48,094 nucleotides of DNA, from assembly GCA_049964515.1 (NCBI GenBank), contig JBMFXF010000001.1:1-48094 (forward strand), read 5' to 3'. The notes under the pieces are model-generated. The model was not told the origin of the DNA. It searched no databases and saw only the letters and a program-made list of their open reading frames with translations. The stretch is from Acetobacteraceae bacterium (GTDB lineage Bacteria; Pseudomonadota; Alphaproteobacteria; Acetobacterales; Acetobacteraceae). The translations under genes were made by a program, and so were the position numbers. This document shows, in pieces, positions 7,272 to 41,116 of the stretch (within the stretch, counting starts at the first letter, position 1; each line of letters begins with the position of its first letter).

Positions 7272-7982
7272 CTAATCCTCGGTCTCGGCGAGCTCCTGCT
7301 CGCCGTCGGTCAGGCGCATCTGCTTGAACGGCAGCGGCTGGTGCTCCTTCAGCATCTCCCGGCCGCGGCGGGCCATGCCGGACAGCGGCTTGCCCTCCAC
7401 CGCCAGGGTCAGGACATCGCCCTTTTTCTCGTCGCCGGCGGCGGTGCCCCAGGTCACGGCGTGGATTCCGGTCTCCCGCACCAGCAACCCCATCAGCGCC
7501 TTGCCGCCCTTGGAGCGATGCAGCGCCATCCGACTGTCCTCCGGCTTCTGGCCCAGCGCCAGGGCGAAGTTCATCCGCAGCCCGCCATGCACCCGTTTCA
7601 GCGCCTTCAGCAGATAGGCGCGGAACGCCGCGGGGGTGGCGAAATCCTTTGCCGCCAGATCGTCGGCGAGTTTCTCGAGACGCTTGCGCTCGGCGGCGAT
7701 GTCGCGGTCGAGCCGGCGCAGCGCGGTGGCCAGCGCGGCCCCGTCGGGGATGGTCTTCGACTTCTCGGCCTCGGCCGCGGCGGCCTGGGCGGCGCCTTCC
7801 ACCTGCTCCAGCCGGTCCTCGGCCTGTTCGATCGTCTCTTCGTCGATCTCGCGGTCCAGGCGCTTGCGCGCCGATTCCCACGCGCGTAACGCGATTTCCA
7901 GCTTGGGCGCGGCGCGCAGCCCCTTGGGCTGGTTGTCCTGCCACCACCGTACCGTCAGTTCCGGCGGATCCTGTCGCGCCAC
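7272..7982 (-). CDS. Hypothetical 236-aa protein: N-terminal module related to the giant-ORF repeats, C-terminal conserved tail ..PLPFKQMRLTDGE..
   Basis: GTG start at 7982 with GGGAGG 6-11 nt upstream on the minus strand. Balanced, charged, helical N-half and a beta-like C-half. A remnant paralogue at 2898-3020 shows the C-terminus is a conserved coding sequence. Confidence 0.8.
   Translation of the reverse strand: MARQDPPELTVRWWQDNQPKGLRAAPKLEIALRAWESARKRLDREIDEETIEQAEDRLEQVEGAAQAAAAEAEKSKTIPDGAALATALRRLDRDIAAERKRLEKLADDLAAKDFATPAAFRAYLLKALKRVHGGLRMNFALALGQKPEDSRMALHRSKGGKALMGLLVRETGIHAVTWGTAAGDEKKGDVLTLAVEGKPLSGMARRGREMLKEHQPLPFKQMRLTDGEQELAETED
7299..7362. repeat. Direct repeat copy B (partner at 2922-2985)
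   Basis: See copy A. It lies inside the 3' end of the intact 236-aa gene. Confidence 0.8.
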
Positions 7983-8071: not shown

Positions 8072-9817
8072 ATGGACTATCAGGTCAATTTCGGACGCCT
8101 CGGCGCGACGGCGAAAACGGCGGCGCCGGGCAAGAAGTTCCGCCTCGCCCTGCTCGGTGATTTCTCCGGCCGCGCCAATGCCGGCAAGCTGGAAACCGGC
8201 GCCGCGCTCGCCGCCCGCAAGCCGATCCGGGTCGATGTCGATAACCTCGACGACGTGCTGGCGCGGATGAAGATCGAGCTGGCGCTGCCGCTGACCGAGG
8301 ACGGGGCGGTGATGGTCCCGATCGGGTCGATGGACGATTTCCACCCCGATCAGCTGGTGGCCAATGTCTCGCTGTTCGAGGAGCTGCGGGGGCTGCGCCG
8401 CAACCTCAACAACCGCGCCGGGTTCGAGAAGGCGGCGAAGCAGGTGATGGCCTGGAGCGGCGCCGAGCATTTGGCGGCACCGAAGCGGCGCGCCCGCGGC
8501 GCCTCGGTGGCGGCGGCGCGGCTGTCCGATTTCGCCCGGCTGATCGGCGCCCCGGCGGCGCCGCGCCCGGAGGAGGCGGAGGCCGACGCGCTGATCGCCC
8601 GGCTGGTGGGCCCGTTCATCAAGCCGGCCAAGGACCCGCGCCAGGACGCGCTGGTGGCGCAGGTGGACGAGGCGTTGTCGGCGGCGATGCGGCGGGTGCT
8701 GCACCACCCCGATTTCCAGACCGCCGAGGCGCTGTGGCGCGGGGTGGAGCTGCTGGTCCGCCGCATCGAGACCGGCGCCACGATGGAGATCATCCTTTAC
8801 GATGTCTCGGCCGAGGAGCTGGCGGCGGATCTGGCCGCCTCCGACCGGCTGGAGGACTCTGGCCTGTTCGGGATGCTGGCCGAGCAGCCGGCGCTGGACG
8901 CGCATCAGGGGCCGATTTCGGCGGTGATCGGGCTCTACGGGTTCGAGCTGGTGCCGCCGCACGCCGACCTGCTGGGCCGGATCGCGCAGATCGCGGCCGG
9001 CGCGGGGGCGCCTTTCATCGCCGCCATCGCGCCGGATGCGCTGGCGACGCCGATGCACGAGCAGAACCCGCTGGTGCAGGATGCGTTCGGCGCGCTGTTC
9101 GACCTGCCGGCCGCGGCCTGGCTGGGGCTGGCCACGCCGCGCTTCCTGCTGCGCCTGCCCTACGGGAAAAAGACCGACCCGATCGACAGTTTCGCGTTCG
9201 AGGAGTTCACCCGCCAGGAGGGGCTCGGCGGGATGCTGTGGGGGCACCCGGCGCTGATCCCGGGGCTGCTGCTGGCCGAGACCAACGCCCAGCAGGGGGC
9301 GAAGATGCGCCTGGGCACGGTGATGGGCGTGGGGGATATTCCTTATTACGTCTATATCGGGCCGGACGGGGAACAGGTGGCGCTGCCCTGCACCGAGCGG
9401 CTTTACACCGAGCGTCAGGCGGTGGCGGTGGCGCAGTACCGGGTGATGCCGCTGCTTTCCATCCGCGGCCGGCCGGAGCTGCGGCTGGGCTCGTTCACCG
9501 CGCTGGGGGGCAAGCCGCTGGCCGGGTTCTGGGCGCCGGCCGGGGTGGCGCCGCCGCCGCCTGCCCCGGCGCGGGCCGCGGCCCCGCCGCCGCGGGCGGA
9601 AGCGCCGGAGGAGCAGGAGGAGGAGGAGACCACGGACGCCGCGGCCGAAACCGAGACCGCCGAGGCGCCGGCCGAGACTGCCGCCGAGGAACCCGCCGCG
9701 GATGCCAGTGCCGACGATCTGGACGCGCTGCTGGCCAGCCTGAACGCCGATGCGCCCCCGGCGGCGGCCGACGAGACGGAGCCGGATCTGGACGCGCTGC
9801 TGGCCTCGTTGAAGTAG
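8072..9817 (+). CDS. T6SS sheath-like fusion protein: TssB(VipA)-like N-terminus plus TssC(VipB)-like core lacking the C-terminal domain, plus Pro/Ala linker and acidic tail
   Basis: ATG 8072 with GGGAGAG upstream. 581 aa. Residues 1 to about 120 (FRLALLGDFSGR, IRVDVDNLDDVLARMKIEL, MDDFHPDQLV, LFEELRGLRRNL) read like TssB. Residues about 175-510 (VLHHPDFQTAEALWRGVELLV.., ILYDVSAEELAADL, APFIAAIAP, PRFLLRLPYGKKTDPIDSFAFEEF, LWGHPA) run parallel to the bona fide TssC at 37018-38445 (ILHHPEFQALEATWRGVRLLL, LFDISKRELARTL, VPFIAAAAP, PRFLARLPYGYRTEPVDAFAFEEE, LWANPA). The tail carries DDLDALLASLN and PDLDALLASLK. Confidence 0.8.
   Translation: MDYQVNFGRLGATAKTAAPGKKFRLALLGDFSGRANAGKLETGAALAARKPIRVDVDNLDDVLARMKIELALPLTEDGAVMVPIGSMDDFHPDQLVANVSLFEELRGLRRNLNNRAGFEKAAKQVMAWSGAEHLAAPKRRARGASVAAARLSDFARLIGAPAAPRPEEAEADALIARLVGPFIKPAKDPRQDALVAQVDEALSAAMRRVLHHPDFQTAEALWRGVELLVRRIETGATMEIILYDVSAEELAADLAASDRLEDSGLFGMLAEQPALDAHQGPISAVIGLYGFELVPPHADLLGRIAQIAAGAGAPFIAAIAPDALATPMHEQNPLVQDAFGALFDLPAAAWLGLATPRFLLRLPYGKKTDPIDSFAFEEFTRQEGLGGMLWGHPALIPGLLLAETNAQQGAKMRLGTVMGVGDIPYYVYIGPDGEQVALPCTERLYTERQAVAVAQYRVMPLLSIRGRPELRLGSFTALGGKPLAGFWAPAGVAPPPPAPARAAAPPPRAEAPEEQEEEETTDAAAETETAEAPAETAAEEPAADASADDLDALLASLNADAPPAAADETEPDLDALLASLK
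9716..9814 (+). repeat. Duplicated 30-nt coding unit (9716-9745 and 9785-9814) encoding DLDALLASL(N/K)
   Basis: gatctggacgcgctgctggccagcctgaac versus gatctggacgcgctgctggcctcgttgaag. The first 21 nt are identical. The second copy ends at the stop codon. Confidence 0.85.
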
Positions 9818-28086: not shown

Positions 28087-28554
28087 ATGGGTCGGTGGTT
28101 CCGAGGTCTGACGGCATTGCTTCTGGTGGCGCTGGTGGCCGGGTGCGGCGCGCCGCCACCGCCGCCGCCGACGGTGGTCAAGCTGACCATCACCGCAACC
28201 AAGGATGTGAACGGCCCGGCCGGCGGGTCCGGCGCGCCGGTGATGCTGCGCGTCTATCAGCTGGCCGGCACCAACAGCTTCACCAACGCGGATTTCTTCC
28301 AGATCTTCAACCATGACGCGGCGACGCTGGGCACCGATTTGGTGCATCAGGACCAGCTCTTGCTGGCCCCCGGCACCACCAAGACGCTGACCCTGAACCC
28401 CAAGGACCAGGTCACCGCGCTCGGATTTTTTGCCGCTTATGGCAATTTCGCCTCCGCCACCTGGCGGGCGACCGCCCCGGTTCCCGCGCACAAGACCACC
28501 GCCATCACCGTCACCGTGGGCGCCAGCGCGATCACCGTGAAGTCGGGCGGATAA
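28087..28554 (+). CDS. tssJ: T6SS outer-membrane lipoprotein TssJ (SciN-like)
   Basis: 155 aa. Lipobox LVAGC. VMLRVYQL..NSFTNADFFQIF is characteristic of TssJ. It is the first gene of the tssJKLM run. Confidence 0.8.
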   Translation: MGRWFRGLTALLLVALVAGCGAPPPPPPTVVKLTITATKDVNGPAGGSGAPVMLRVYQLAGTNSFTNADFFQIFNHDAATLGTDLVHQDQLLLAPGTTKTLTLNPKDQVTALGFFAAYGNFASATWRATAPVPAHKTTAITVTVGASAITVKSGG

Positions 28555-28558
28555 CGGA

Positions 28559-29896
28559 ATGGGCTGGGAAAACCGCGTTGTCTGGTCGGAGGGCCTGTTT
28601 CTCCAGCCCCAGCATCTGCAGCAGCAGAACCGCTATACGGAGCGGCTGATCCGCGCCGCCACCGCCGGGCTGCGCCCGTTCAGCTGGGGGCTGACCCAGC
28701 TCGACGTGGACCCCGACCTGCTGGCGCTGGGGAAATTCGCGGTGCGCGCCGTCGCCGGCATCCTGCCGGACGGCACGCCCTTCGCCGCCCCCGGAGATAC
28801 CGACCCGCCGCGTCCGATCGACCTGCCGGACACGGCGCGCAACAGCGTGGTCTATCTGATCCTGCCCACCCGCCAGCCGGGCGGGGTGGAGATCGCCGGC
28901 GCCGGGCAGGAGGAAACCGTCGCCCGGTTCGGCGCCGTCGAACACGAGGTGACCGACAGCAACGCCGGGTATCAGGGGGTGGCGACGGTTCCGGTGGGGC
29001 GGCTGCGGCTGCGTTTCGCGCTCGAGACCGATGCGCGGGAGGGCTACACCGGCATCGGGCTGGCGAGGATCGCCGATATCCGGGCCGACAAATCCACCCA
29101 GCTCGACGAGAGCTTCATCCCGCCGCTGCTGCTGACCTCGGTTTCCCCCTCGCTGGCGGGGTTCGCCACCCAGCTGCAAGGGCTGCTGCATCATCGCGCG
29201 GAGGCGCTGGCGGGGCGGGTTTCCGAGACCGCCACGCGCGGGGCCGCCGAGATCGCCGATTACATGATGCTGCAACTCTGCAACCGCTACGAGCCGGTGA
29301 TGACCCATCTGGCCAACACCGCCGGGCAGCTGCACCCGGAGACGTTCTATCAGTTCTGCGTCTCGCTGGCCGGGGAGCTTGCCACCTTCACCGAAAGCCG
29401 CAAGCGCCCGGCCGAGTTCCCGCCCTATCGGCACGAGGACCTGACGGCGACCTTCCGCCCGGTGATGACGGCGCTGCGGCAGTCGCTGTCGGCGGTGCTG
29501 GAACAGACCGCGGTGCCGATCCCGTTGCAGGAACGCCGGTTCGGCATCCGGGTGGGACCGATCGCCGATCGCACGCTGGTGGCCAACGGCACCTGGGTGC
29601 TGGCGGTGAAGGCGCAGATGCCGGCCGAACAGCTGCGCCGGGGGTTCCCGAATCTGTGCAAGATCGGGCCGGTGGAACAGATTCGCGAGCTCATCAACGT
29701 GGCGCTGCCCGGCATCCCGGTGCGCGCGCTGCCGGTGGCGCCGCGGCAACTGCCGTACTATGCGGGCACCTCCTATTTCGAGCTCGACCGCAGCTCGCCC
29801 TACTGGGCCGCGCTGGCCCGGTCGGGCGGGATCGCCATCCATGTCACGGGTGACGTGCCGGGTCTCGAGATCGAGTGCTGGGCGATCAGGGGATAG
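28559..29896 (+). CDS. tssK: T6SS baseplate/membrane-complex connector TssK (ImpJ/VasE)
   Basis: 445 aa. N-terminus MGWENRVVWSEGLFLQPQHLQQQNRY is the hallmark TssK start. Confidence 0.9.
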   Translation: MGWENRVVWSEGLFLQPQHLQQQNRYTERLIRAATAGLRPFSWGLTQLDVDPDLLALGKFAVRAVAGILPDGTPFAAPGDTDPPRPIDLPDTARNSVVYLILPTRQPGGVEIAGAGQEETVARFGAVEHEVTDSNAGYQGVATVPVGRLRLRFALETDAREGYTGIGLARIADIRADKSTQLDESFIPPLLLTSVSPSLAGFATQLQGLLHHRAEALAGRVSETATRGAAEIADYMMLQLCNRYEPVMTHLANTAGQLHPETFYQFCVSLAGELATFTESRKRPAEFPPYRHEDLTATFRPVMTALRQSLSAVLEQTAVPIPLQERRFGIRVGPIADRTLVANGTWVLAVKAQMPAEQLRRGFPNLCKIGPVEQIRELINVALPGIPVRALPVAPRQLPYYAGTSYFELDRSSPYWAALARSGGIAIHVTGDVPGLEIECWAIRG

Positions 29897-29899
29897 CGG

Positions 29900-31231
29900 A
29901 TGAGCGACGATCCGTTTGCCGAACCAACGGACAGCGAAGCCACCATCATCCGTCCGCGACCGGGCGGGCGCGGGGCGGCGCCGGCCGCCGCCGCGGCCCC
30001 GGTTCACGCCGCCGGACCGGCGGGGCCGATCCCCACGGTCGGCGCCAACCCGCTGCTGGCCGCCGCCGCCCCGCTGCTGGCCGCGGCGGTGCGCATCGGT
30101 GCCACCCGCGGCACCCCGCCCGACCCGGAGACGCTGCGCCGGGCGATGGTCGAGGCGATCCGCGAGTTCGAGAAGCGCGCGCTGGGCACCGGGCTGGAAA
30201 CCCGCAGCCTGCGCGCCGCCCGCTATGCGCTCTGCGCCACCATCGACGATCTGGTGCTGAGCACCCCCTGGGGCAGTTCCAGCGGCTGGGCGGCGCAAAG
30301 CCTGACCAGCATCTTCCACAACGAGGTGAGCGGGGGCGAGCGGTTCTTCGACATCCTCGAGGACATGCAGCGGGACCTGGGCAAGAATCTCGACGTCGTC
30401 GAGCTGATGTATCTGTGCTGCTCGCTGGGGTTCGAGGGCCGCTACCGGGTGATGAACCGCGGCATCGCGGCGCTGACCGAACTCCGGGACTCGATCTACC
30501 GCACCATCCGCCAGCGCCGGGGGGAGTTCGAGCGCGATCTGTCGCCGCGCTGGAAGGGGCTGAACCTGGCCTATAAGGGCCTGCGCCAGACGGTGCCGAT
30601 CTGGCTGCTGGCGCTGGGCACGCTGGGGCTGGCGGCGCTGATCTATGTGCTGCTCGATTTCGCGCTGGCCGGCGATGCCGGGGTGGCCTACGCGCGGCTG
30701 GCCGGGCTGCCGCCGCACGGGCCGGTGCATGTGGTGCGCACCCAGCCGGCGCCGCCCCCGCCGCCGCCGCCGATCGTGGCCACCTCCGCCGGGCCGAGCG
30801 TGGCCCAGTTCCTCGCCCCCGAGGTGAAGAAGGGCGAGGTGCAGGTGTTCGAGGACGCGCAGGCGATCACCGTGCGCCTCATCAACAACCAGATGTTCCC
30901 GTCCGGGTCGGCGACGTTGAATCCCGCCTACCTGCCGCTGCTGCACAAGATCGCCGCCGCGCTGAAAACCCGGCCGGGCCAGGTGATCGTGAACGGCTAC
31001 ACCGACAACCAGCCGATCCACACCGTGCAGTTCCCCTCCAACTGGGTGCTGTCGCAGGCGCGGGCGGCCGCGGTGGCCGATGTGCTGCGCGGGCAGCTGG
31101 CCAACCCGACGCGGGTGCGCGCGGTGGGCAAGGGTGACGCCGATCCCATCGCGTCGAACGCCACCGCCGCCGGGCGGGCGCAGAACCGAAGAACCGAGAT
31201 CATCATCATGAAGACGGCGCAACTGCCATGA
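29900..31231 (+). CDS. tssL: T6SS membrane-complex protein TssL (DotU family) with C-terminal OmpA/MotB peptidoglycan-binding domain
   Basis: 443 aa. DotU core (RYALCATIDDLVLSTPWG, FFDILE, ELMYLCCSLGFEGRYR), one TM helix, then an OmpA-like domain (NGYTDNQPI.., NWVLSQARAAAVADVL, NRRTEIII). Confidence 0.9.
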   Translation: MSDDPFAEPTDSEATIIRPRPGGRGAAPAAAAAPVHAAGPAGPIPTVGANPLLAAAAPLLAAAVRIGATRGTPPDPETLRRAMVEAIREFEKRALGTGLETRSLRAARYALCATIDDLVLSTPWGSSSGWAAQSLTSIFHNEVSGGERFFDILEDMQRDLGKNLDVVELMYLCCSLGFEGRYRVMNRGIAALTELRDSIYRTIRQRRGEFERDLSPRWKGLNLAYKGLRQTVPIWLLALGTLGLAALIYVLLDFALAGDAGVAYARLAGLPPHGPVHVVRTQPAPPPPPPPIVATSAGPSVAQFLAPEVKKGEVQVFEDAQAITVRLINNQMFPSGSATLNPAYLPLLHKIAAALKTRPGQVIVNGYTDNQPIHTVQFPSNWVLSQARAAAVADVLRGQLANPTRVRAVGKGDADPIASNATAAGRAQNRRTEIIIMKTAQLP

Positions 31232-34200
31232 TGGATTGGCCGCGGCGGTTCATCCGCAGCTTCTGGGGCGAGATGGTCGTCAGCGCGGTGGTGATATCGC
31301 TGCTGATCTGGTTCTTCGGTCCGCTGCTGGGTCTGGGTCGGTTCCACCCGCTCAGCACCGTGTTCGAGCGGGTGATCACCATCACCGCGCTGGTGCTGCT
31401 GTTCGTCATCATCAGCCTGGTCCATGAGCTGCGCGAGAAGAAGCGCGAGAAGGAGCTCGAGGAGGGGCTGGCCGAGGGCGAGCACGAGAAGGACCCGTCC
31501 GAGGAAGCCTCGGCGGAGGAAATCGCGCTGCTGTCGGAGCGGATGAAGGAAGCGCTGGCGCAGCTCAAGAAGGCGAAGCTGGGCGGCAAGTCGCGCCGGT
31601 CGCTGTATCAGCTGCCGTGGTACATGTTCATCGGCCCGCCCGGATCGGGCAAGACCACCGCGCTGGTGAATTGCGGGCTGCGGTTTCCGCTGGCCGAGGG
31701 CGGCGGTGCGCACGCGGTCAAGGGCGTGGGCGGGACCCGCAACTGCGACTGGTGGTTCACCGATCAGGCGGTGATGATCGACACCGCCGGGCGCTACACC
31801 ACCCAGGATTCCGACGCCGCGGTGGACTCCAAGGCCTGGGGCGGGTTCCTGAAACTGCTGAAAAAGCAGCGCCCGCGCCAGCCGCTGAACGGGGTGCTGG
31901 TGGCGATCAGCCTGTCCGATCTCGCGACCCTGCCGGAAGGCGAGCGCTTCGCCCATGCCCGCGCCATCCGCAAGCGGGTGCGCGAGCTGTCCGACGAGCT
32001 CGGCGTGCGGGTGCCGGTCTATGTGATGTTCACCAAGGCCGACCTGGTGGTGGGATTCGTCGAGTTCTTCGACAATCTGGGCAAGGAGGAGCGCGAGCAG
32101 GTCTGGGGCGTGACCTTCGGCCTGGACGACGGCAAATCCGAGGCTGGCACGGTGGGCGAGTTCGGCGCCGAGTTCGACCGGCTGATGCAGCGGCTGAACG
32201 AGCGCATGATGGAGCGGGTCCACCAGGAACCCGACATGCAGCGCCGGCGGCTGATCTGGGGCTTCCCGCAGCAGCTGGCCTCGCTGCGCGATGTCGCCAA
32301 CGAGTTCCTGACCGAGGCGTTCCGCCCGTCGCGGCTGGAAACCCGGCCGTTGCTGCGGGGCATTTATCTCACCTCCGGCACCCAGGACGGCACCCCGATC
32401 GACCGGCTGCTGGGCAGCATGGCCGGCCGCTTCGGGCTGGCGCGGCAGGCGGTGGCGGCATTCAGCGGCGCCGGGCGCAGCTATTTCCTCTCGCGCCTGG
32501 TCTCCGGCGTGATCTTCGGCGAGGCCGGGCTGGTCAGCCGCGACCCGAAGGTGGAAAAGCGGCAGAAGCTGATGAACTACGCCACCTGGGGCGTGTGCGG
32601 GGTGGTGCTGCTGGGGCTGATCGCGGCCTGGACCATCAGCTTTGTTGCCAACCGTGACGCGATGGACGCGCAACAGGCGGCGATCGCGCGCTACAACAAG
32701 CAATACGCGGCGATCGTGCGGGCGGGAGCGGATGATACGCATCTGGTGACGGTGGCGCCGGCGCTGGAAACCCTGCGCACGCTGCCGGACGGCTGGGCCA
32801 CCCGCGAATCGCCGGTGCCGTGGTCGGCCACCTGGGGCCTCTATCAGGGCACCCAGCTGCACGCGGCGGCCAATGCGGCCTATGCCAACGCGCTGGACGG
32901 GTTGCTGCTGCCGCGGCTGCTGGCGCGGCTCGAGCGGCAGATGCAAGCCAATCTGGACAAGCCGAATTTCCTTTACGAAGCGCTGGAAGTCTATCTGATC
33001 CTGGGCCGGCAGGGGCCGCTGGACCCGGCGCTGGTGCGGCACTGGATGCACGAGGATTTCGCCGCCTCCTACCCCGGCGAGGAGAATGCGCCGCTGCGGG
33101 CCTCGCTGAACGCCGATGTGGCGGCGATGCTGCAGTTCCCGCTGCCCGCGGTGCCGCTGAACGGCCCGCTGGTGGCGGAAGTGCGCGGCGTGCTGACCCG
33201 CAAGCCGTTCGCCGATTATCTGTACGACAGCATCATCCACAGCCAGGTGGCGCGGCGGCTGCCGGAATGGACGGTGGCCGAGAATGCCGGGCCGGCCGGC
33301 TCGCGGGTGTTCGCGCTGCGCAACGGCAAGCCGCTGGACACCGGGATGCCGGGTATTTTCACCTGGGACGGCTACCACAAGACATTCCTGCCGCTGATCC
33401 CGGCGGTAACCAAGCAGGCTTCCGAACAGAGCTGGGTGCTGGGCCGCCCGCAATCGACCAGCGAGGAGGCGCTGACCAAGCTGCGCCATGACGTGCTGAG
33501 CCTGTATCTGGACGACTACACCCGTCGCTGGGATGCGCTGCTGGCCAATGTCGCGCTGAAGCCCTTCACTACCCTGGCGCAGGGGCAGAACGAGCTGTTC
33601 CTGCTGTCGGCCCCCGATTCACCGCTGCGGGACCTGTTGAAGGCGATCGACGAGCAGACCCAGCTCAGCCACCACGCCGCCGGCTCCGCCAAGGGCGAGA
33701 AGGCCAAGACCGTGCGGGAGGGGCTGACCGATATCGCCAAGGAACGGCTGGCCGCCGGGGAAACGCTGGAGGAAGGCGAGATCGGCAACGTGCTGGGCCA
33801 GGCCTTCGGCCGCGGCGCCGAGGGCAAGCCGATCGACCCCGCCAAGCGGGTGGACGAGCATTTCGCGGCGCTGCACGAGTTCGTGGACGGCAAGAAGCCC
33901 GGCTCGCCGCATCTGGACGCGGTGATCGCGCAGATCCAGCAGATCTATCAGGGCATCAACCAGGCGGCGAACGCGCCCAACCAGGGCCAGGCGCTGCTGG
34001 GAATGGTGGCGGGCGGCGGCGCCGGCGGCGGCGCGGCCGGCGGGGCGGCCGCGCTGGCGCAGGTGGCGCAGGAGGTGCCGAAGCCGGTGGCGGCGATGCT
34101 GCAGACCGTATCCGCCTCGAGCTCGGCGGTGACCGCGAGCGGGGCCGCCACCCAGATCTCGGATGCGTGGAAATCGAAGGTCCTGCCGCTCTGCCAGGAG

Positions 34201-34848
34201 GCGTTCAACCGCTACCCGTTCGTGCGCGGCAGCGGCGAGGACGTGCCGCTGGGCGACTTCACCCATCTGCTGGGTCCGCACGGGCTGATGAAGAAGTTCT
34301 TCGACAAATACCTGGCCGCCCTGGTCAACACCACCGTCACGCCCTGGCAATGGCAATCGGCCGACCACACCAAGCTGGGGCTGGCTCCCGGGGCGTTGGC
34401 CGAGTTCGAGCGGGCCGATCAGATCCGCGAGGCGCTGTTCCCCGACGGCTCGAAGATGCAGGTGAAGTTCCAGCTGACGCCGGTCTCGGCCGATGCCGGG
34501 GTGGGGCAGATCCGCATCCAGATCGGCAAGCAGACGCTCACCTGGGCGCATGGGCCGGCGCAGCCGACCAACCTCACCTGGCCTGGCGCCGGCGGCAATG
34601 ACGAGGTGCGGGTGATTATGACCCCTGCCAATGGCGGGCCGGCCACGGTGATCGAGAATGACGGGCCGTGGTCGCTGCTGCGGATGCTGGATGCGGCGCG
34701 GGTGATCCCGACCGGGGCACCGGACCGGTTCCAGATCGTGTTCTCGAGCCCGCAGGGCAGCGCCACCTTCCGGCTGAACGCGAACAGCGTGCGCAACCCG
34801 TTCAACATGGCGGCGCTGCGGGCGTTCCGCTGCCCGCCCAATCTGTAA
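31228..34848 (+). CDS. tssM: T6SS membrane-complex protein TssM (IcmF family)
   Basis: 1206 aa. N-terminal TM helices, Walker A GPPGSGKTT, DTAGRYTTQD and long IcmF-like periplasmic region. ATGA overlap with tssL. Confidence 0.92.
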   Translation: MMDWPRRFIRSFWGEMVVSAVVISLLIWFFGPLLGLGRFHPLSTVFERVITITALVLLFVIISLVHELREKKREKELEEGLAEGEHEKDPSEEASAEEIALLSERMKEALAQLKKAKLGGKSRRSLYQLPWYMFIGPPGSGKTTALVNCGLRFPLAEGGGAHAVKGVGGTRNCDWWFTDQAVMIDTAGRYTTQDSDAAVDSKAWGGFLKLLKKQRPRQPLNGVLVAISLSDLATLPEGERFAHARAIRKRVRELSDELGVRVPVYVMFTKADLVVGFVEFFDNLGKEEREQVWGVTFGLDDGKSEAGTVGEFGAEFDRLMQRLNERMMERVHQEPDMQRRRLIWGFPQQLASLRDVANEFLTEAFRPSRLETRPLLRGIYLTSGTQDGTPIDRLLGSMAGRFGLARQAVAAFSGAGRSYFLSRLVSGVIFGEAGLVSRDPKVEKRQKLMNYATWGVCGVVLLGLIAAWTISFVANRDAMDAQQAAIARYNKQYAAIVRAGADDTHLVTVAPALETLRTLPDGWATRESPVPWSATWGLYQGTQLHAAANAAYANALDGLLLPRLLARLERQMQANLDKPNFLYEALEVYLILGRQGPLDPALVRHWMHEDFAASYPGEENAPLRASLNADVAAMLQFPLPAVPLNGPLVAEVRGVLTRKPFADYLYDSIIHSQVARRLPEWTVAENAGPAGSRVFALRNGKPLDTGMPGIFTWDGYHKTFLPLIPAVTKQASEQSWVLGRPQSTSEEALTKLRHDVLSLYLDDYTRRWDALLANVALKPFTTLAQGQNELFLLSAPDSPLRDLLKAIDEQTQLSHHAAGSAKGEKAKTVREGLTDIAKERLAAGETLEEGEIGNVLGQAFGRGAEGKPIDPAKRVDEHFAALHEFVDGKKPGSPHLDAVIAQIQQIYQGINQAANAPNQGQALLGMVAGGGAGGGAAGGAAALAQVAQEVPKPVAAMLQTVSASSSAVTASGAATQISDAWKSKVLPLCQEAFNRYPFVRGSGEDVPLGDFTHLLGPHGLMKKFFDKYLAALVNTTVTPWQWQSADHTKLGLAPGALAEFERADQIREALFPDGSKMQVKFQLTPVSADAGVGQIRIQIGKQTLTWAHGPAQPTNLTWPGAGGNDEVRVIMTPANGGPATVIENDGPWSLLRMLDAARVIPTGAPDRFQIVFSSPQGSATFRLNANSVRNPFNMAALRAFRCPPNL

Positions 34849-34872
34849 GAGCCCGATCCGGGAGGACCCAAG

Positions 34873-37011
34873 ATGCCGAGCGACACGTCCGCGAGTTCCA
34901 CGCCGATGGTGACGCTGTCGGTGTCCCCCGACCCCGGGTTCACGCTGAATCTGGACCGGCTGGAGGGCACCGAGCGCCTGGGCCGGCCGTTCACCTACCG
35001 GCTGTTCCTGTCCAGCACCAAGGCCAAGCCCAACCTCACCTCGGTGCTGGGCAGTTCGGTCACGGTGACGCTGACCAACCCCGACAAATCGAAGCGCTAT
35101 TTCAACGGGATCGTCGGACGGATCGCCTATGCGGGGATGCGCGCCGGCGGGCGCACCTATGTGATGGAGCTACGACCGTGGATCTGGCTGCTGTCGCACC
35201 GCAAGGATTGCCGGATTTTCCAGAACCAGACCGTCTATGACGTCATCACCACGGTGTGCAAGGATGCGGGGTTCACCGATCTCGAGGACAACCGCAAAGG
35301 CTCGCCCAAAGCCGGCAGCCAGAGCCTGGAATACTGCGTGCAGTACGACGAGACCTCGCTGGACTTCATCACGCGGCTGATGGAAGAATACGGCATCTAT
35401 TATTACTACAAGCACAGCGATGGCAAGCACACCATCGTGCTGGCGGACGATCCGTCGTCGCACGATTCGATCGGCGCGGCGCTGCCGTTCGCCCTGCGCC
35501 AGACCGGATCGCGCGCGGTGCAGGAGCATCTGTGGCAGTGGTCCTCTGAGCTTTCCGTGCAATCGGGCAAGGTCACGTATTCGGACTACAATTTCGAAAC
35601 TTCCACGGTGCCGTTGACCACCTCGACCGGGGCCGGTCCGGCGCCCTATAAATACGGGGATTTCGAGCTGTTCGACTACCCGGGCCGGTATCTGACCGTC
35701 TCCGACGGCACCCCGCTCACCGATGTGCGGCTACAGGGTCTGGCGTGGCAGGAACTGGTGAAGTTCGGTACCACCAATTCGCGCAAGCTGGCCACAGGGT
35801 CGAAGTTCTCGATGTCCGGCTTCTTCGATGCCGCCGAGAACGGCAGCTACGTGGTGATCGAGGCGACCTACGCGCTCAACCTGTCGGAGGCGAAATCCGC
35901 CACCGCCGGGGAGACGCGCCACGTCTTCACCGTACGGTTCCAGGCACTCACCGACACCACCACCTTCCGCCTGCCGCGGGTGACGCCGCGCCCGCGCATC
36001 CACGGGGCGCAGACGGCCCGCGTGGTGACCACCCCCACGGGTGCGGCCACCGACGAGATCGTGACCGACGAATACGGCCGCATCCTGGTGCTGTTCCCGT
36101 GGGCACGACCGGATTCGCCGGCGACGCAGACGGAGACGCAGCAGAACGCACAGAAGGCCTCGTGCTGGATCCGGGTGGCGCAGCTGTGGGCGGGCGTGTC
36201 CTGGGGGGCGATGTTCATCCCCCGGGTCGGGATGGAGGTGGTGGTCACCTTCCTGGAAGGCGACCCGGACCGGCCGCTGGCGGTGGGCTGCGTCTATAAC
36301 GACAAGCAGACCGTGCCCTACGCGCTGCCCGGCGAGAAGACCAAATCCACCATCAAGAGCAATTCGTCGGAGGGCGGCGGCGGGTTCAACGAGCTGCGCT
36401 TCGAGGACAAGAAGAACAGCGAGGAGGTCTATTTCCACGCCCAGAAGGACTACAACAAGGAAGTCCTGAACAACGAGACGGTGACGATCACCCAGAACAC
36501 CACCACCACGGTGCAGAAGGGGAACCGGTCGGTCACGGTGTCGGAGGGAAACAATTCGCTCACGGTCTCGAAGGGAAACAACTCGACCACCGTTTCCCAG
36601 GGGAATGAATCACTCACCGTCTCGCAAGGCACCAGCACCACGAAGGTGTATGGCGATACCACGCTGAAGGTCGAATCCGGCGACCACAAAATCACGGTTG
36701 ATGAAGGTGACAGCAGCCTGACGGTGACGCTCGGCGACCACAAGATCGAGGCCACCGCCGGCTCCTCCACCTACAAGACCGGCGGCGACATCACCATCGA
36801 TTCCGGTGGCAGCATCACCATCAAGGCCGCCAACCAGATCACCATCCAGGTGGGGTCGAGTTCGATCACCATCACCTCCGACAGCATCTCGGTCTCCACC
36901 TCCAGCTTCTCGGTCAGCGGGAAGTCCATCTCCCTCGCCGCCGGCGGCAGCAGCCAGTCGATGTCGAGCACCTCGATTTCGCTCACCTCGCCCTCCATCG
37001 CGCTGAACTAG
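34873..37011 (+). CDS. vgrG: T6SS spike protein VgrG (no C-terminal effector extension evident)
   Basis: 712 aa. gp27-like N-terminus (LEGTERLGRPFTYRLFL, YFNGIV, ELRPWIWLL, FQNQTVYDVI, EYCVQYDETSLDFITRLMEEYGIYYYY). gp5 OB-fold region (CWIRVAQLWAG..WGAMFIPRVGMEVVVTFLEGDPDRPL). C-terminal beta-helix repeats (VTVSEGNNSLTVSKGNNSTTVSQGNESLTVSQG...). Confidence 0.92.
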   Translation: MPSDTSASSTPMVTLSVSPDPGFTLNLDRLEGTERLGRPFTYRLFLSSTKAKPNLTSVLGSSVTVTLTNPDKSKRYFNGIVGRIAYAGMRAGGRTYVMELRPWIWLLSHRKDCRIFQNQTVYDVITTVCKDAGFTDLEDNRKGSPKAGSQSLEYCVQYDETSLDFITRLMEEYGIYYYYKHSDGKHTIVLADDPSSHDSIGAALPFALRQTGSRAVQEHLWQWSSELSVQSGKVTYSDYNFETSTVPLTTSTGAGPAPYKYGDFELFDYPGRYLTVSDGTPLTDVRLQGLAWQELVKFGTTNSRKLATGSKFSMSGFFDAAENGSYVVIEATYALNLSEAKSATAGETRHVFTVRFQALTDTTTFRLPRVTPRPRIHGAQTARVVTTPTGAATDEIVTDEYGRILVLFPWARPDSPATQTETQQNAQKASCWIRVAQLWAGVSWGAMFIPRVGMEVVVTFLEGDPDRPLAVGCVYNDKQTVPYALPGEKTKSTIKSNSSEGGGGFNELRFEDKKNSEEVYFHAQKDYNKEVLNNETVTITQNTTTTVQKGNRSVTVSEGNNSLTVSKGNNSTTVSQGNESLTVSQGTSTTKVYGDTTLKVESGDHKITVDEGDSSLTVTLGDHKIEATAGSSTYKTGGDITIDSGGSITIKAANQITIQVGSSSITITSDSISVSTSSFSVSGKSISLAAGGSSQSMSSTSISLTSPSIALN

Positions 37012-37017
37012 GGCCCG

Positions 37018-38445
37018 ATGTCCGACCTCGCCACCATCATCCGCCGCCCGCGCCCCGCGCCGCCCCCGCCGGCGTTGCTGGCCGGGCTGCGGGCGCTGGC
37101 GGAGCTGCCGGTTCGCCCCGAGGGCCCGCCGCCCAACGATCCGCGGCGCGCGATCGAGGCGATCATCGCCGAGCTCGACCGCATCATGGGCGAGATGATC
37201 GAGCGGATCCTGCACCACCCGGAGTTCCAGGCCCTCGAGGCCACCTGGCGGGGCGTGCGGCTGTTGCTGGACGGCGCCGACGGCGACCCGGCCGTGAAGA
37301 TCCGGCTGTTCGACATCTCCAAGCGCGAACTCGCGCGCACGCTTCGCAAGTTCCGCGGCACCGCCTGGGACCAGAGCCCGCTGTTCCGCCGCATCTACGA
37401 CGAGGAATACGGCCAGTTCGGCGGCCAGCCGTTCGGCGTGCTGGTAGGCGACTACGCCTTCGACCACAGCGCGCCGGACGTGACCTTGCTGTCCGATATC
37501 GCGCGCATCGCCGCCGCCGCGCATGTCCCGTTCATCGCTGCCGCCGCGCCCAGCCTGATGCAGATGGACAGCTGGTCGGAACTCGCGAACCCGCGCGACA
37601 TCTCCCGCCTGTTCCGCACCCCGGAATACACCGCCTGGCGGGCGCTGCGGCAGGGCGAGGACACGCGCTATATCGGCCTCTGCCTGCCGCGCTTCCTGGC
37701 CCGGCTGCCCTATGGCTACCGCACCGAACCGGTCGATGCCTTCGCCTTCGAGGAGGAGGTGGACGGGCCGGACGACCGCAACTTCCTGTGGGCCAACCCG
37801 GCCTATGCGATGGCCGGCAACATCGCCCGCGCGTTCCGCCTCTATGGCTGGTGCGTGCGCATCCGCGGTATTGACGGCGGCGGGCTGGTGCAGGGGTTGC
37901 CGGAATATCATTTCCCTACCGCGGATGGTGACGCCGACCCGCGCTGTTCGGTGGAGATCGCGCTGTCGGAGCGGCGGGAATCCGAGCTCGCGGCCAACGG
38001 GCTGATCCCGCTGGTGCATCTGCGCAATGGCGACGGGACGGCCTTCGTCGGCGCCCCGTCGTTGCAGGAGCCCGCGGTCTATGACGCCCCCGACGCCACC
38101 GCCAACGCGGTGATGTCGGCCCGGCTGCCCTATATCTTCGCCACCTGCCGATTCGCGCATTATCTGAAATGCATGGTGCGCGATAAGATCGGAACCTCGA
38201 TGGATGGGCCGGCGATCGAACGCTGGCTGCAGAGCTGGATCAACGGCTACGTCGATGGGTCTCCCCAGACCTCGTCGGAGGAGCACAAGGCCTCGCATCC
38301 GCTGGCGGATGCCTCGATCAAGCTCGAGGCACGGCAAGATCAGCCTGGCACCTACGAGGCACGGTTCTTCATCCGCCCGCACTATCAGCTGGAAGCGTCC
38401 ACGGCGACGGTGCGGTTGTTGTCGAAACTCGCGGGGACGTCGTGA
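37018..38445 (+). CDS. tssC: T6SS contractile sheath large subunit TssC (VipB/ImpC/EvpB)
   Basis: 475 aa. ILHHPEFQALEATWRGVRLLL, PRFLARLPYG, RIRGIDGGGLVQGLP, LPYIFATCRFAHYLKCMVRDKIG and FIRPHYQLE are full-length TssC hallmarks. Starts 6 nt after the vgrG stop, with no tssB in front. Confidence 0.93.
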   Translation: MSDLATIIRRPRPAPPPPALLAGLRALAELPVRPEGPPPNDPRRAIEAIIAELDRIMGEMIERILHHPEFQALEATWRGVRLLLDGADGDPAVKIRLFDISKRELARTLRKFRGTAWDQSPLFRRIYDEEYGQFGGQPFGVLVGDYAFDHSAPDVTLLSDIARIAAAAHVPFIAAAAPSLMQMDSWSELANPRDISRLFRTPEYTAWRALRQGEDTRYIGLCLPRFLARLPYGYRTEPVDAFAFEEEVDGPDDRNFLWANPAYAMAGNIARAFRLYGWCVRIRGIDGGGLVQGLPEYHFPTADGDADPRCSVEIALSERRESELAANGLIPLVHLRNGDGTAFVGAPSLQEPAVYDAPDATANAVMSARLPYIFATCRFAHYLKCMVRDKIGTSMDGPAIERWLQSWINGYVDGSPQTSSEEHKASHPLADASIKLEARQDQPGTYEARFFIRPHYQLEASTATVRLLSKLAGTS

Positions 38446-38460
38446 ACACGGGAGGACCCT

Positions 38461-39180
38461 ATGGCTGACAATGACTCCACGGACATGCTGATGGCGGTGA
38501 CGGGGCAGAACGGGGGCAAGCTGGCGGGTCAGGGGCTGGCCGCGCTCGACACCAGCGATACGGAGATGCTCGACGGGATCACCGCCGGATTTTTCACCGA
38601 GATCCAGGATATCAGCTTCGGCATCGGGGTGGAGGACAGCGAAACCTCAAGCTCCTCGGGCCCGGTGAACGCGGTGCACGACATGCAGGCGCAGACGCTC
38701 GAGACGGTGCAGAAGCACCTCGAGAACGTGCTGGCCGAGCAGGTCAAGGGCAAGATGCCCAAGATGGGCACCCGGAGCAAAGGCAAGCAGTTCAAGAATT
38801 TCGTCGATACCGGCCGGGTCACCGATGACGACGATAATCCGGTCTATTCCACCGTGTTCGACCCGATCACGATCACCCGCGCGATCGACCAGATGTCGCC
38901 ATTCATTCTTTACAACTGCGCCTACCAGAAGGCGCTGCAGAGCATCGTGGTCGTGAAGCGGAAAGTCACCGGAAATACCGGGTTCCACGAAGCGTTCGTC
39001 CGGCTGCAGTTCGACGAATGCCTGATCACCGCGGTGGACTGGGACCACGGCGATACGTTCACCGAGAAGATGAAATTCGTCTATCGCACGCTTACCGTGA
39101 AATATCGCCCGCAAAGCAACGACGGCACCCTGGCGGCGCCCAAGACCATGACCTACTCGATGACGATGCAGTCAGCCTAG
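38461..39180 (+). CDS. hcp: Hcp-family inner tube protein with a large internal insertion
   Basis: 239 aa. It aligns by eye to P. aeruginosa Hcp1 segments: DMLMAVTGQNGGK~DMFIKIGDVKGES, IQDISFGIG~IDVLAWSWG, ITITRAIDQMSPFILYNCAYQKALQSIVVVKRK~LSFTKYIDKSTPNLMMACSSGKHYPQAKLTIRK, TEKMKFVYRTLTVKYRPQSNDG~TENVTLNFAQVQVDYQPQKADG. About 75 aa separate the second and third blocks, against about 17 in Hcp1. Confidence 0.8.
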   Translation: MADNDSTDMLMAVTGQNGGKLAGQGLAALDTSDTEMLDGITAGFFTEIQDISFGIGVEDSETSSSSGPVNAVHDMQAQTLETVQKHLENVLAEQVKGKMPKMGTRSKGKQFKNFVDTGRVTDDDDNPVYSTVFDPITITRAIDQMSPFILYNCAYQKALQSIVVVKRKVTGNTGFHEAFVRLQFDECLITAVDWDHGDTFTEKMKFVYRTLTVKYRPQSNDGTLAAPKTMTYSMTMQSA

Positions 39181-40380: not shown

Positions 40381-40390
40381 CCCCGCCTCC

Positions 40391-41116
40391 TCAATCCGCT
40401 TCCGTGGCGATCACCACGGCGGTCACGTTGTCATTGGTCTTGCGCTCGAGGGCCGCGGCCACCAGCGCCTCCGCCGGCGAGGACTCGAGCGGGCCGGCCA
40501 GCAGCATCTGCAACTCCGCCGCGTCCACCGCCTTGCTCAGACCGTCGCTGCACAGCAGGAACCGGTCCCCGGACTGAAGCCGGTCGGTGACCTTGTCCAG
40601 CGCGAAATCCTCCACCGCCGCCCCCACCGCGCGGGTGATGACGTTGTTATAGGGATGATGCTCGGCGGCCTCGGCGGTGATCTGCCCGGAATCCACCAGC
40701 TCCTGCACCAGGCTGTGGTCGCGCGAGATCTGCGTCAGCGTGCCGTCGCGCAGCAGATAGGCCCGCGAATCCCCAGCCCACAGGCAGGCGAAATACCCGT
40801 CGCGCACCACCAGCATCACCACCGTGGAGGCGATGGTGACATCCGGGCCGCGGCTTTCCGCCTCCTCCCGCAAGGCCTCGTGAACGCCGGTCACCCGCGC
40901 CCGCACCATCGCCAGCAGCTCGGCGGCGGGAAGCTCGGTGGGAATGGCCTCCAGCGCGGCGACGATCATGCCGGAGGCGACCTCCCCGGCATCGTGCCCG
41001 CCGGCGCCGTCGGCCACCGCCCACAGCCCCAGGTCGGGGCGGTTGACCAGCGCATCCTCGTTATGGTCGCGCACCGCGCCGACATCGGTGGCTGCCCAGG
41101 AGAGCAGGGTGCTCAC
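40391..41116 (-). CDS. pppA: PP2C-family Ser/Thr phosphatase (T6SS PppA-like)
   Basis: 241 aa from GTG 41116 (GTGA overlap with the tagF stop). TDVGAVRDHNEDA, WAVADGAGGHDAGEVAS, GDSRAYLLRDG, LLCSDGL and DNVTAVV are PP2C motifs. Confidence 0.85.
   Translation of the reverse strand: MSTLLSWAATDVGAVRDHNEDALVNRPDLGLWAVADGAGGHDAGEVASGMIVAALEAIPTELPAAELLAMVRARVTGVHEALREEAESRGPDVTIASTVVMLVVRDGYFACLWAGDSRAYLLRDGTLTQISRDHSLVQELVDSGQITAEAAEHHPYNNVITRAVGAAVEDFALDKVTDRLQSGDRFLLCSDGLSKAVDAAELQMLLAGPLESSPAEALVAAALERKTNDNVTAVVIATEAD

What the first reader, a model, noticed from the sequence alone, without database searches (positions are those of the whole stretch)
8072..9817. Orphan TssB-TssC' fusion: a sheath-like protein missing the TssC C-terminal domain and carrying an acidic tail with a duplicated DLDALLASL motif
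- **Fusion in one ORF.** A single uninterrupted 581-aa ORF joins a TssB/VipA-like N-terminus (about aa 1-120) to a TssC/VipB-like core (about aa 175-510). The core runs motif for motif alongside the canonical TssC at 37018-38445.
- **Missing C-terminal domain.** The similarity stops about 110 aa before the canonical TssC ends. The LPYIFATCRFAHYLK...FIRPHYQLE region is absent.
- **Replacement tail.** In its place is a Pro/Ala linker and a very acidic tail (9535-9814). The tail ends in two near-identical DLDALLASL units encoded by a 30-nt duplication.
- **Only TssB-like sequence here.** The main T6SS operon in this window has no tssB at all, so this fusion holds the only TssB-like sequence I can find. 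It lies about 27 kb from tssC.
- **Why it matters.** In canonical T6SS, TssB and TssC are separate, adjacent and interdigitate. The TssC C-terminal strands are part of the sheath handshake.
- **Possible roles (inference).** A fusion without that domain could be a sheath initiator or cap, a polymerisation regulator, or a decoy. The short amphipathic acidic LLxxL-type helices loosely recall the sheath N-terminal helix that ClpV/TagJ-type partners bind, so the tail could be a recruitment peptide.
Basis: partly seen in the sequence, partly recalled or inferred. Interest (0 to 1): 0.82.

Follow-up and report, generated by a model that had tools for sequence, protein, structure and literature searches.

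The report
Non-polymerising T6SS sheath paralogue, docking tail
This gene encodes a conserved, so far undescribed helper protein of the bacterial type VI "spring-loaded injector": a copy of the spring (sheath) subunit that has lost the part needed to build the spring and has gained a floppy acidic tail with a repeated docking peptide.

Summary
Window 8072-9817(+) is one intact 581-aa ORF. It has a TssB/VipA-like N-terminus (aa 23-114), a TssC/VipB N-domain (aa 192-467), no TssC C-terminal domain, and a 94-aa acidic tail (net charge -21) with two DLDALLASL units.

It is not a decayed or unique orphan. It belongs to a large conserved family, with at least 150 clusters at 50% identity. dN/dS is 0.13 against an 83%-identical orthologue.

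In other lineages the gene sits inside T6SS clusters that also carry canonical tssB and tssC. So it is an accessory component, not a TssB substitute.

Family architectures vary:
- core only
- core plus acidic tail
- full TssB, then up to about 20 motif repeats, then core
- core, then acidic linker, then a complete short TssA, in one locus occupying the tssA slot

The core keeps the homologue of the TssB N-terminal linker strand. It lacks the TssB C-terminal segment and the TssC C-terminal domain, which includes the TssC linker.

My inference is a "donor-only" sheath paralogue that acts with TssA at a sheath end as a cap or plug. The tail would be a multivalent docking module whose partner is unknown.

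I found no publication describing it. Databases label it as the sheath large subunit.

The parts
8072..9817 (+). Whole gene: 581-aa TssB'-TssC' sheath paralogue with acidic tail (stop codon at 9815-9817)
   Evidence: dN/dS is 0.13 against the L094 orthologue.
8072..8095 (+). aa 1-8, MDYQVNFG: homologue of the TssB/VipA N-terminal linker beta-strand (TssB 'QIEYDVELYG')
   Evidence: Y3, F7 and G8 are invariant in 50 homologues. The segment aligns to the TssB N-terminal strand in all architecture types. AF2 predicts an isolated short strand at E4-6. The role of VipA N-terminal linkers in the sheath mesh comes from PMC5813253.
8138..8413 (+). aa 23-114: TssB/VipA-like domain (Pfam PF05591, profile positions 28-122 of 155). 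The TssB C-terminal segment is absent.
8414..8644 (+). aa 115-191: linker that corresponds to the TssC N-terminal region. It contains the nearly invariant helix L151-S-D-F-A-R-L157 (8522-8542), which aligns to the N-terminal helix region of TssC (PDB 5urw).
   Evidence: Conserved columns are and the alignment to 5urw_1B residues 10-60 is. AF2 predicts a helix at 142-157 with low pLDDT.
8645..9472 (+). aa 192-467: TssC/VipB N-terminal domain (PF05943). Similarity to TssC runs to about aa 482. No PF18945 domain follows.
9533..9814 (+). aa 488-581: Pro/Ala linker plus acidic disordered tail (net charge -21)
   Evidence: Composition is. AF2 pLDDT is 30-45 except at the two motif helices. dN/dS of the tail is 0.25-0.33.
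9716..9742 (+). Motif copy 1, DLDALLASL (aa 549-557)
   Evidence: AF2 predicts a helix at 548-558.
9785..9811 (+). Motif copy 2, DLDALLASL (aa 572-580), followed only by the C-terminal Lys
   Evidence: the last motif ends one residue before the C-terminus in 117 of 120 homologues. AF2 predicts a helix at 573-580.
7272..7982 (-). Divergently transcribed 236-aa partner gene of unknown function. It stays next to the fusion gene throughout the Acetobacteraceae-type clade, even where the pair is detached from the T6SS cluster.
   Evidence: tblastn at 41-45% identity in L001-L004, L008, L009 and L019, and in L093 and L094. No Pfam, NCBIfam, PDB or fold match. AF2 gives a confident helical bundle at aa 10-110.
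28102..39180 (+). Partial T6SS cluster, 18 kb downstream of the fusion gene: tssJ (28102-28554), tssK (28559-29896), tssL (29900-31231), tssM (31228-34848), vgrG (34873-37011), tssC (37018-38445), 239-aa Hcp-like gene (38461-39180)
39172..41913 (-). Minus-strand end of the cluster: conserved 402-aa unknown (39172-40380), PP2C phosphatase (40391 to about 41100), TagF homologue (within 41116-41913)

Best explanation
The gene encodes an accessory component of a type VI secretion system. It is a paralogue of the TssB-TssC sheath protomer that cannot polymerise.

**Shown**
- It is one polypeptide. It has the TssB N-terminal strand and TssB N-domain, the TssC N-terminal region and VipB domain (the parts matched by Pfam PF05591 and PF05943), and a disordered acidic tail.
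- It lacks the TssB C-terminal segment and the whole TssC C-terminal gp25-like domain (PF18945), and with it the TssC C-terminal linker.
- Published sheath structures relate TssE/gp25 to the inner 'Domain 1' that accepts neighbouring subunits' linker strands. I infer from Pfam's 'gpW/gp25-like' label for PF18945 that the missing domain is that acceptor.
- The family is large, conserved and T6SS-linked. It coexists with canonical tssB and tssC.
- In some lineages the core is covalently fused to a complete TssB or a complete short TssA.

**Inferred mechanism**
- The protein keeps one donor strand, the TssB-type N-terminal linker, but offers no acceptor. It could therefore dock on an open Domain-1-type acceptor and cannot itself be extended.
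- The candidate acceptors are the last sheath ring at the growing distal end, where TssA sits, or TssE at the baseplate.
- It would then act as a cap or terminator, or as a TssA-coupled end adaptor, that sets sheath length or stability.
- The tail's 1-3 DLDALLxxL amphipathic helices (up to about 20 in relatives) would act as a multivalent docking module for an unidentified T6SS partner. Candidates are the ClpV N-domain, TssA, or Fha condensates.
For: **Domain content and losses**
- establish which sheath parts are present and which are missing.

**Donor strand**
- The N-terminal strand is conserved and homologous to TssB 'IEYDVELYG' in every architecture type.

**Family size and selection**
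- phmmer gives 4553 hits, and the top 150 clusters at 50% identity all lack the TssC C-terminal domain.
- dN/dS is 0.13.

**T6SS linkage with canonical tssB and tssC present**
- Leisingera plasmid, Eleftheria, L088, L091 and L092.
- The Acetobacteraceae-type clade has fusion - 184-aa gene - fha - tssJKLM - vgrG - tssC.

**Natural fusions**
- P0205 aa 798-1118 align to the full length of short TssA (E 3e-18). In L091 this gene sits in the tssA slot just upstream of tssB, and it holds the only TssA-like sequence in that locus.
- P0134, P0152 and the Leisingera ORF start with a complete TssB.

**Motif**
- 292 motifs observed against 0.05 expected, anchored at the C-terminus.
- The same motif occurs in N-terminal, internal or C-terminal acidic regions across orders.
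- 50 of 56 motif occurrences in the six-frame translations of all held loci fall in these ORFs.
Against: - There is no experimental or co-folding evidence for any binding partner or location.
- The AF2 model is only moderate (mean pLDDT 61). The N-terminal strand and the linker have low confidence.
- Equating aa 1-8 with the handshake strand rests on sequence alignment plus published structures. It was not checked by superposition here.
- Several family members are genomic orphans far from any T6SS gene, so a T6SS-independent role is not excluded.
- The acidic motif array also appears in the TssA-fused forms. The motif therefore does not simply replace a covalent link to TssA.
- I could not establish whether this genome encodes tssA, tssB, tssE, tssF, tssG and clpV elsewhere.
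Confidence: 0.4

Rival explanations
1. ClpV/TagJ recruiter or decoy. The core mimics the outer surface of a contracted sheath subunit. The DLDALLxxL helices, together with the internal LSDFARL helix, mimic the TssC N-terminal helix that the ClpV N-domain binds. The protein would then titrate or recruit the disassembly ATPase and so tune sheath recycling.
For: - ClpV-binding TssC helices are short amphipathic peptides of variable sequence, for example EAEC TssC2 ATDDCLEEIINNTRA, with Kd values in the tens of micromolar (PMC5048182). Such weak binding would benefit from multivalency.
- The fusion keeps a nearly invariant helix where the TssC N-terminal helix aligns.
- Clusters that carry the gene also encode ClpV and TagJ.
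Against: - The resemblance of the motif to ClpV-binding helices is loose and was not scored.
- About 500-aa family members have no motif, yet some sit in clusters with ClpV and TagJ.
- This reading does not explain the fusions to TssA and TssB.
- No ClpV or TagJ gene is present in the window.
Confidence: 0.2
2. Assembly gatekeeper in the Fha/PpkA/PppA/TagF post-translational pathway. The donor-only paralogue would occupy TssE or the baseplate, or partition into Fha condensates through its multivalent acidic tail. It would block or seed the first sheath ring until a signal arrives.
For: - The gene lies beside fha/tagH, tagF and PP2C in the Acetobacteraceae-type and Rhodobacterales clusters.
- The window cluster keeps PP2C and TagF.
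- Fha/PpkA condensates that recruit T6SS structural parts have been reported (PMC12607579 abstract).
- The tail is a low-complexity acidic region carrying repeated motifs.
Against: - The window and its closest relatives have lost fha next to the cluster but keep the gene under selection.
- No kinase gene was identified in the window; it was not specifically searched for.
- The natural fusions are to TssA and TssB, not to Fha or TssE.
Confidence: 0.15
3. Structural substitute. In this clade the fusion would supply the TssB function for the tssB-less tssC at 37018-38445, giving a sheath with an unusual composition.
For: - There is no tssB within the window or within 10 kb of tssC in 12 or more related loci.
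- The fusion is the only TssB-like sequence visible in the window.
Against: - The TssB-like part lacks the TssB C-terminal segment and is already joined to its own TssC-like domain.
- The clade's TssC is a normal full-length TssC, scoring 588 bits against a cut-off of 271.5.
- Elsewhere the fusion coexists with canonical tssB and tssC.
- tssA, tssE, tssF, tssG and clpV are also missing from the locus. That suggests a second T6SS locus elsewhere, where tssB would be expected.
Confidence: 0.05
4. Decaying remnant of a tssBC pair, or a gene-calling artefact.
For: In this lineage the gene is detached from the T6SS cluster.
Against: - The ORF is intact, with GC3 of 0.92.
- dN/dS is 0.10-0.13 at dS 0.8.
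- Hundreds of conserved homologues share the same architecture.
Confidence: 0.01

Closest known systems
TssB/TssC (VipA/VipB, HsiB/HsiC) contractile sheath protomer
   Same: - It is homologous to the TssB N-domain and the TssC N-terminal (VipB) domain.
- The best sequence and fold matches are all T6SS sheath structures.
- The TssB-type N-terminal strand is retained.
   Different: - It is a single polypeptide.
- It lacks the TssB C-terminal segment and the TssC C-terminal gp25-like domain and linker, so it has no acceptor domain.
- It scores below the NCBIfam equivalog cut-offs.
- It carries an acidic tail with a motif array.
- It coexists with canonical tssB and tssC.
TssE (gp25-like sheath initiator)
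   Same: Both are partial mimics of a sheath subunit, used (TssE) or proposed here (this protein) to act at an end of the sheath polymer (PMC5813253).
   Different: TssE is the converse case: it has only the Domain-1-like acceptor fold. This protein has the TssB N-domain, the TssC VipB domain and a donor strand, but no Domain 1.
TssA / TagA (ImpA_N proteins; distal-end chaperone and stopper)
   Same: - Some family members are natural fusions of this core to a complete short TssA, and one occupies the tssA slot.
- A 495-aa member is divergently adjacent to tssA.
   Different: - The window protein has no ImpA_N domain.
- No oligomerisation domain was identified.
TagJ (ImpE) and TagB, accessory partners of short-TssA systems
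   Same: - They are accessory rather than core parts.
- This gene is found in clusters with short TssA and TagJ.
- TagJ and TagB are proposed to tune sheath stability (PMC7896307).
   Different: - There is no sequence relationship.
- TagJ and TagB are small TPR or ankyrin-type proteins.
- This family does not appear in the 2026 review of accessory factors (PMC13584744).

Membership tests
TssC, contractile sheath large subunit (NCBIfam TIGR03355 equivalog) | VipB N-terminal domain (PF05943) | tested here: met
   aa 192-467, E 8.6e-38, 130.5 bits against a cut-off of 27
TssC, contractile sheath large subunit (NCBIfam TIGR03355 equivalog) | C-terminal gpW/gp25-like domain (PF18945) with the C-terminal linker | tested here: not met
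   No PF18945 hit. The alignment to the window's TssC stops at TssC aa 347 of 475. None of 270 family proteins matches a TssC C-terminal query.
TssC, contractile sheath large subunit (NCBIfam TIGR03355 equivalog) | Whole-protein score above the curated cut-off | tested here: not met
   136.8 bits against a cut-off of 271.5. The window's real TssC scores 588.2.
TssB, contractile sheath small subunit (NCBIfam TIGR03358 equivalog) | Full-length VipA domain, including the C-terminal segment, with a score above the cut-off | tested here: not met
   Only profile positions 28-122 of 155 are matched. The score is 41.3 bits against a cut-off of 97.25.
TssB, contractile sheath small subunit (NCBIfam TIGR03358 equivalog) | N-terminal linker beta-strand (RVQIEYDVE-type) | tested here: met
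   MDYQVNFG aligns to it and is conserved family-wide. Its function as a donor strand was not tested.
TssA/TagA family | ImpA_N domain (PF06812) | tested here: not met
   There is no hit in the window protein. It is present only in the fused relatives P0183, P0191, P0196 and P0205.
Unnamed TssB'-TssC' accessory family (defined here) | PF05591 (partial) plus PF05943 in one chain, with no PF18945 | tested here: met
   All 120 closest homologues have the same two domains. The top 150 representatives lack the TssC C-terminal domain.
Unnamed TssB'-TssC' accessory family (defined here) | Acidic disordered region with D-[LIM]-[DE]-x-[LIM]-[LIM]-x-x-[LIM] motifs (a subgroup feature) | tested here: met
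   Two copies in the window protein and 1-3 copies in all 120 close homologues. Absent from the forms of about 500 aa.
Unnamed TssB'-TssC' accessory family (defined here) | Physical association with the T6SS sheath, TssA or the baseplate | not testable with these tools
   Only genomic linkage and natural domain fusions are available.

The most novel reading that the evidence does not exclude
The family would be a dedicated chain-terminating sheath subunit. It keeps the TssB donor strand but has no acceptor domain. Working with TssA, it would cap the distal end of the growing sheath (or plug TssE) and so set sheath length and firing time. Its array of acidic DLDALLxxL helices would be a new multivalent docking code that recruits a T6SS hub such as ClpV or TssA. 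This would give T6SS a functional counterpart of phage tail terminators. It could also help explain why the composition of the distal end has stayed unresolved.
Probability: 0.25. Interest if true: 0.85.

Novelty: new variant of a known kind. Interest (0 to 1): 0.62.

Why it matters
How a T6SS sheath stops growing, and what sits at its distal end, is only partly understood. The known answers are TssA, TagA for long-TssA systems, and TagB/TagJ for short-TssA systems. A cryo-EM study left the composition of the distal end open and noted that sheath-like subunits fit the density (PMC5813253).

Here is a widespread, strongly conserved sheath paralogue. It has lost exactly the polymerising part of the subunit. 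It is fused in nature to TssA or TssB, and it carries a conserved short-motif array. It is a concrete, testable candidate for a new class of sheath-end or sheath-dynamics factor.

It also matters for annotation. PGAP and IMG label these proteins "contractile sheath large subunit" or "ImpC". That can make a genome appear to hold a second tssC, or a tssB, that it does not have.

Tried and rejected
- **Decayed tssBC pair:** rejected on GC3, dN/dS and family conservation.
- **Link to the upstream 1345-aa protein (3151-7188):** no similarity to the N-terminal extension of the long Leisingera form. It has no homologue in any related locus. It is an indel relative to a 97%-identical relative.
- **Partner gene 7272-7982(-):**
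  - Pfam, NCBIfam, a PDB profile search and AF2 plus Foldseek gave nothing usable.
  - The homologue search returned only 4 proteins.
- **Hidden tssA, tssB, tssE, tssF, tssG, clpV, tagJ or fha in the window:** none found by six-frame phmmer.
- **Motif in other T6SS proteins as a clue to the partner:** only 6 stray matches outside these ORFs.
- **Literature:** searches for TssB-TssC fusion, sheath-like, TssC-like, and PF05943/PF05591 found no description of this protein. A 2026 review of accessory factors does not mention it either.
- **Agrobacterium 'TssC40' (Atu4340/ImpD):** considered as a possible equivalent. The paper describes it as a second TssC-like core component required for Hcp secretion, encoded within the tssB-tssC-tagJ-tssE operon. 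I did not compare sequences and do not equate the two.
- **Extra contexts for the forms of about 500 aa:** three of four were orphans and gave no information.
Full report
**1. The observation**

Window 8072-9817(+) is a single ATG-initiated ORF of 581 aa with a plausible ribosome-binding site. GC3 is 0.92 along its whole length, including the tail.

Pfam finds T6SS_VipA at aa 23-114 (profile positions 28-122 of 155) and VipB at aa 192-467. It finds no VipB_2 domain. The NCBIfam equivalogs for TssC and TssB are hit only partially and well below their cut-offs: 136.8 against 271.5 bits, and 41.3 against 97.25 bits.

The window's own TssC (37018-38445) carries VipB plus VipB_2 and scores 588 bits. 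BLASTP aligns fusion aa 185-482 with TssC aa 38-347 at 33% identity (E 2e-38). The remaining 128 aa of TssC have no counterpart in the fusion. Fusion aa 1-114 align with aa 19-129 of a canonical TssB.

A profile built from 50 homologues hits only T6SS sheath chains in the PDB. It covers TssC residues up to about 318-343 and TssB residues up to about 125. An AF2 model (mean pLDDT 61, with many core blocks at 70-88) matches the same structures by fold.

The tail (aa 488-581) is Pro/Ala-rich and then strongly acidic, with net charge -21. It contains DLDALLASL twice. The two DNA units are identical for 21 nt and then use different synonymous Ser and Leu codons. The peptide is what is being conserved; this is not a recent DNA duplication.

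**2. It is a conserved family, not a one-off**

The word-indexed search returned 3028 hits. The best 120 (62-97% identity) all have the VipA plus VipB architecture and lengths of 559-644 aa.

An exhaustive phmmer search against 1.84 billion cluster representatives gave 4553 hits, 1165 of them at E<=1e-30. None of the top 150 clusters matches a TssC C-terminal domain query.

dN/dS between the window gene and an 83%-identical orthologue is 0.13 at dS 0.81. The TssC-like part gives 0.10 and the tail 0.33.

**3. Genomic context**

In the window, the gene and a divergent 236-aa gene (7272-7982) lie between secDF and a SpoU methylase gene. They sit 18 kb from a partial T6SS cluster. That cluster holds tssJ-K-L-M-vgrG-tssC and an Hcp-like gene on the plus strand, and a 402-aa unknown, PP2C and TagF on the minus strand.

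The window has no tssA, tssB, tssE, tssF, tssG, clpV, tagJ or fha. Two close relatives (97% and 83% identity) keep the same detached gene pair.

In the wider Acetobacteraceae/Rhodospirillales-type clade, the pair lies directly upstream of the cluster. The order is [236-aa gene, minus strand] - fusion - [184-aa gene, minus strand] - fha - tssJ - K - L - M - vgrG - tssC - hcp-like.

In other lineages the protein coexists with a complete canonical set:
- On Leisingera plasmids the order is tssA-B-C-hcp-tagJ-tssE-F-G-H ... [this gene] - vgrG - PAAR - tagH - tssK-L-M - tagF - PP2C.
- In Eleftheria terrae it follows tssK, in a cluster that has tssA-B-C.
- A 495-aa form is divergent from tssA-B-C-tagJ-E-F-G-clpV.

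Some members are true orphans.

The gene is therefore an accessory T6SS gene. It does not replace tssB.

**4. Architectural variation is the most informative evidence**

Among the 150 representatives I found four kinds of architecture:
- **Core only.** About 80 representatives, around 500 aa, with no motif.
- **Core plus C-terminal extension.** About 36 representatives, usually an acidic tail. Twenty of them carry the strict motif.
- **Long forms with an acidic N-terminal region followed by the core.** About 20 representatives; 15 of the 20 carry the strict motif, in up to 9 copies. Roughly half of these start with a complete TssB.
- **Core, then acidic linker, then ImpA_N.** Four representatives.

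The Leisingera ORF is annotated from an internal Met. It is in fact open from a full-length TssB paralogue.

P0205 aa 798-1118 align over the whole length of short TssA proteins (E 3e-18). In locus L091 this gene lies immediately upstream of tssB. It holds the only TssA-like sequence in that 23-kb locus.

Natural fusions to both TssB and TssA argue that the core works in physical proximity to the sheath and to TssA.

**5. What is kept and what is lost**

Published structures show how sheath subunits are meshed. Each subunit donates two beta-strand linkers, the VipA N-terminal and the VipB C-terminal, to subunits in the ring nearer the baseplate. TssE mimics the acceptor (inner Domain 1) for the first ring (PMC5813253).

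The fusion lacks the TssC C-terminal domain, which Pfam describes as gpW/gp25-like, together with the TssC C-terminal linker. It also lacks the TssB C-terminal segment.

It begins exactly with a conserved strand, MxYxVxFG, in which Y3, F7 and G8 are invariant. This strand aligns to the TssB 'QIEYDVELYG' N-terminal strand. The strand heads the core in every architecture type, even when hundreds of residues precede it.

The region between the two domains aligns to the N-terminal region of TssC. It holds a nearly invariant LSDFARL helix.

**6. The tail motif**

- All 120 close homologues have 1-3 copies. That is 292 motifs against 0.05 expected from shuffled tails.
- In 117 of 120 the last copy is followed by a single C-terminal residue.
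- The same motif (DLDALLGGL, DLDSLLAGL, LGDLLAGI and similar) recurs in the acidic regions of the long forms, whether these are N-terminal or internal.
- One member instead has about 12 'EDDPFAS' repeats.
- In six-frame translations of all held loci, 50 of 56 motif matches lie in these ORFs.
- AF2 predicts helices only at the two motifs within an otherwise disordered tail.

This is the signature of a multivalent short linear docking motif. Its partner is unknown.

**7. Mechanism (inference)**

A sheath paralogue with a donor strand, no acceptor and no second linker could dock onto an open acceptor and could not be built upon. The candidate acceptors are the last sheath ring at the distal end, where TssA resides, or TssE.

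I therefore favour a cap, terminator or TssA-coupled end-adaptor role, with the tail as a recruitment module (confidence about 0.4).

The rivals are:
- a ClpV/TagJ recruiter or decoy; ClpV-binding TssC helices are short amphipathic peptides that bind weakly (PMC5048182);
- a gatekeeper in the Fha/PppA/TagF pathway, possibly through condensates (PMC12607579);
- a structural TssB substitute, which I consider unlikely.

**8. Novelty**

I found no paper describing this protein. A 2026 review of accessory factors does not mention a sheath-like accessory. No NCBIfam model is dedicated to it. Sources call it the sheath large subunit, ImpC or ImpB.

It is a new variant within a well-known system rather than a new kind of system.

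**9. Limits**

- No multimer modelling, no expression data and no whole-genome view were available.
- Model confidence is moderate.
- The equivalence of aa 1-8 to the handshake strand rests on alignment plus the literature.

Noticed in passing
window 37018-38445 and 28102-41913: The T6SS cluster has a full-length tssC directly after vgrG. There is no tssB, tssA, tssE, tssF, tssG or clpV in 48 kb. The same tssB-less order (vgrG-tssC-hcp-like) recurs in 12 or more related loci. A second T6SS locus elsewhere in these genomes is likely but was not seen.
   Followed up: partly
window 38461-39180: The Hcp-like protein is 239 aa, and only its C-terminal part (aa 130-215) matches Hcp. The roughly 125-aa N-terminal extension is unexplained. 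Relatives carry one or two such genes.
   Followed up: no
window 3151-7188 (+): A 1345-aa helical protein with no Pfam or NCBIfam hit and no homologue in any related locus. It replaces a PIN/antitoxin pair found at the same site in a 97%-identical relative (L093). It is therefore a recent indel next to the fusion gene pair.
   Followed up: partly
window 9820-11528: An MFS transporter gene (10014-11360) is present in the window but absent at the same site in the close relative L093. This is a second strain-level indel flanking the gene pair.
   Followed up: partly
window 41116-41913 (-): A TagF homologue (E 9e-29) lies in a different frame from the long ORF 40391-41590 that holds PP2C. The true PP2C start is probably near 41100, so tagF and pppA are adjacent or overlapping genes.
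   Followed up: partly
window 21714-25799 (-): A 1361-aa ORF with strong coding signal (GC3 0.90) and no Pfam or NCBIfam match, lying between the fusion gene and the T6SS cluster.
   Followed up: no
L005 17268-21728 (Leisingera aquaemixtae plasmid NZ_CP081053.1): The RefSeq CDS starts at an internal Met (L005 18111). The reading frame is open from 17268 and begins with a complete TssB paralogue. The real product is probably about 1486 aa: TssB, then acidic repeats, then core.
   Followed up: yes
L001 11865-12413 (-) and equivalents in L002-L026: A conserved gene of about 184 aa with unknown function lies between the fusion gene and fha in the wider clade. It is missing from the window.
   Followed up: no
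P0196 aa 600-760: One TssA-fused family member carries about 12 'EDDPFAS' repeats in place of the DLDALL-type motif. This looks like a second kind of acidic short-motif array in the same position.
   Followed up: no
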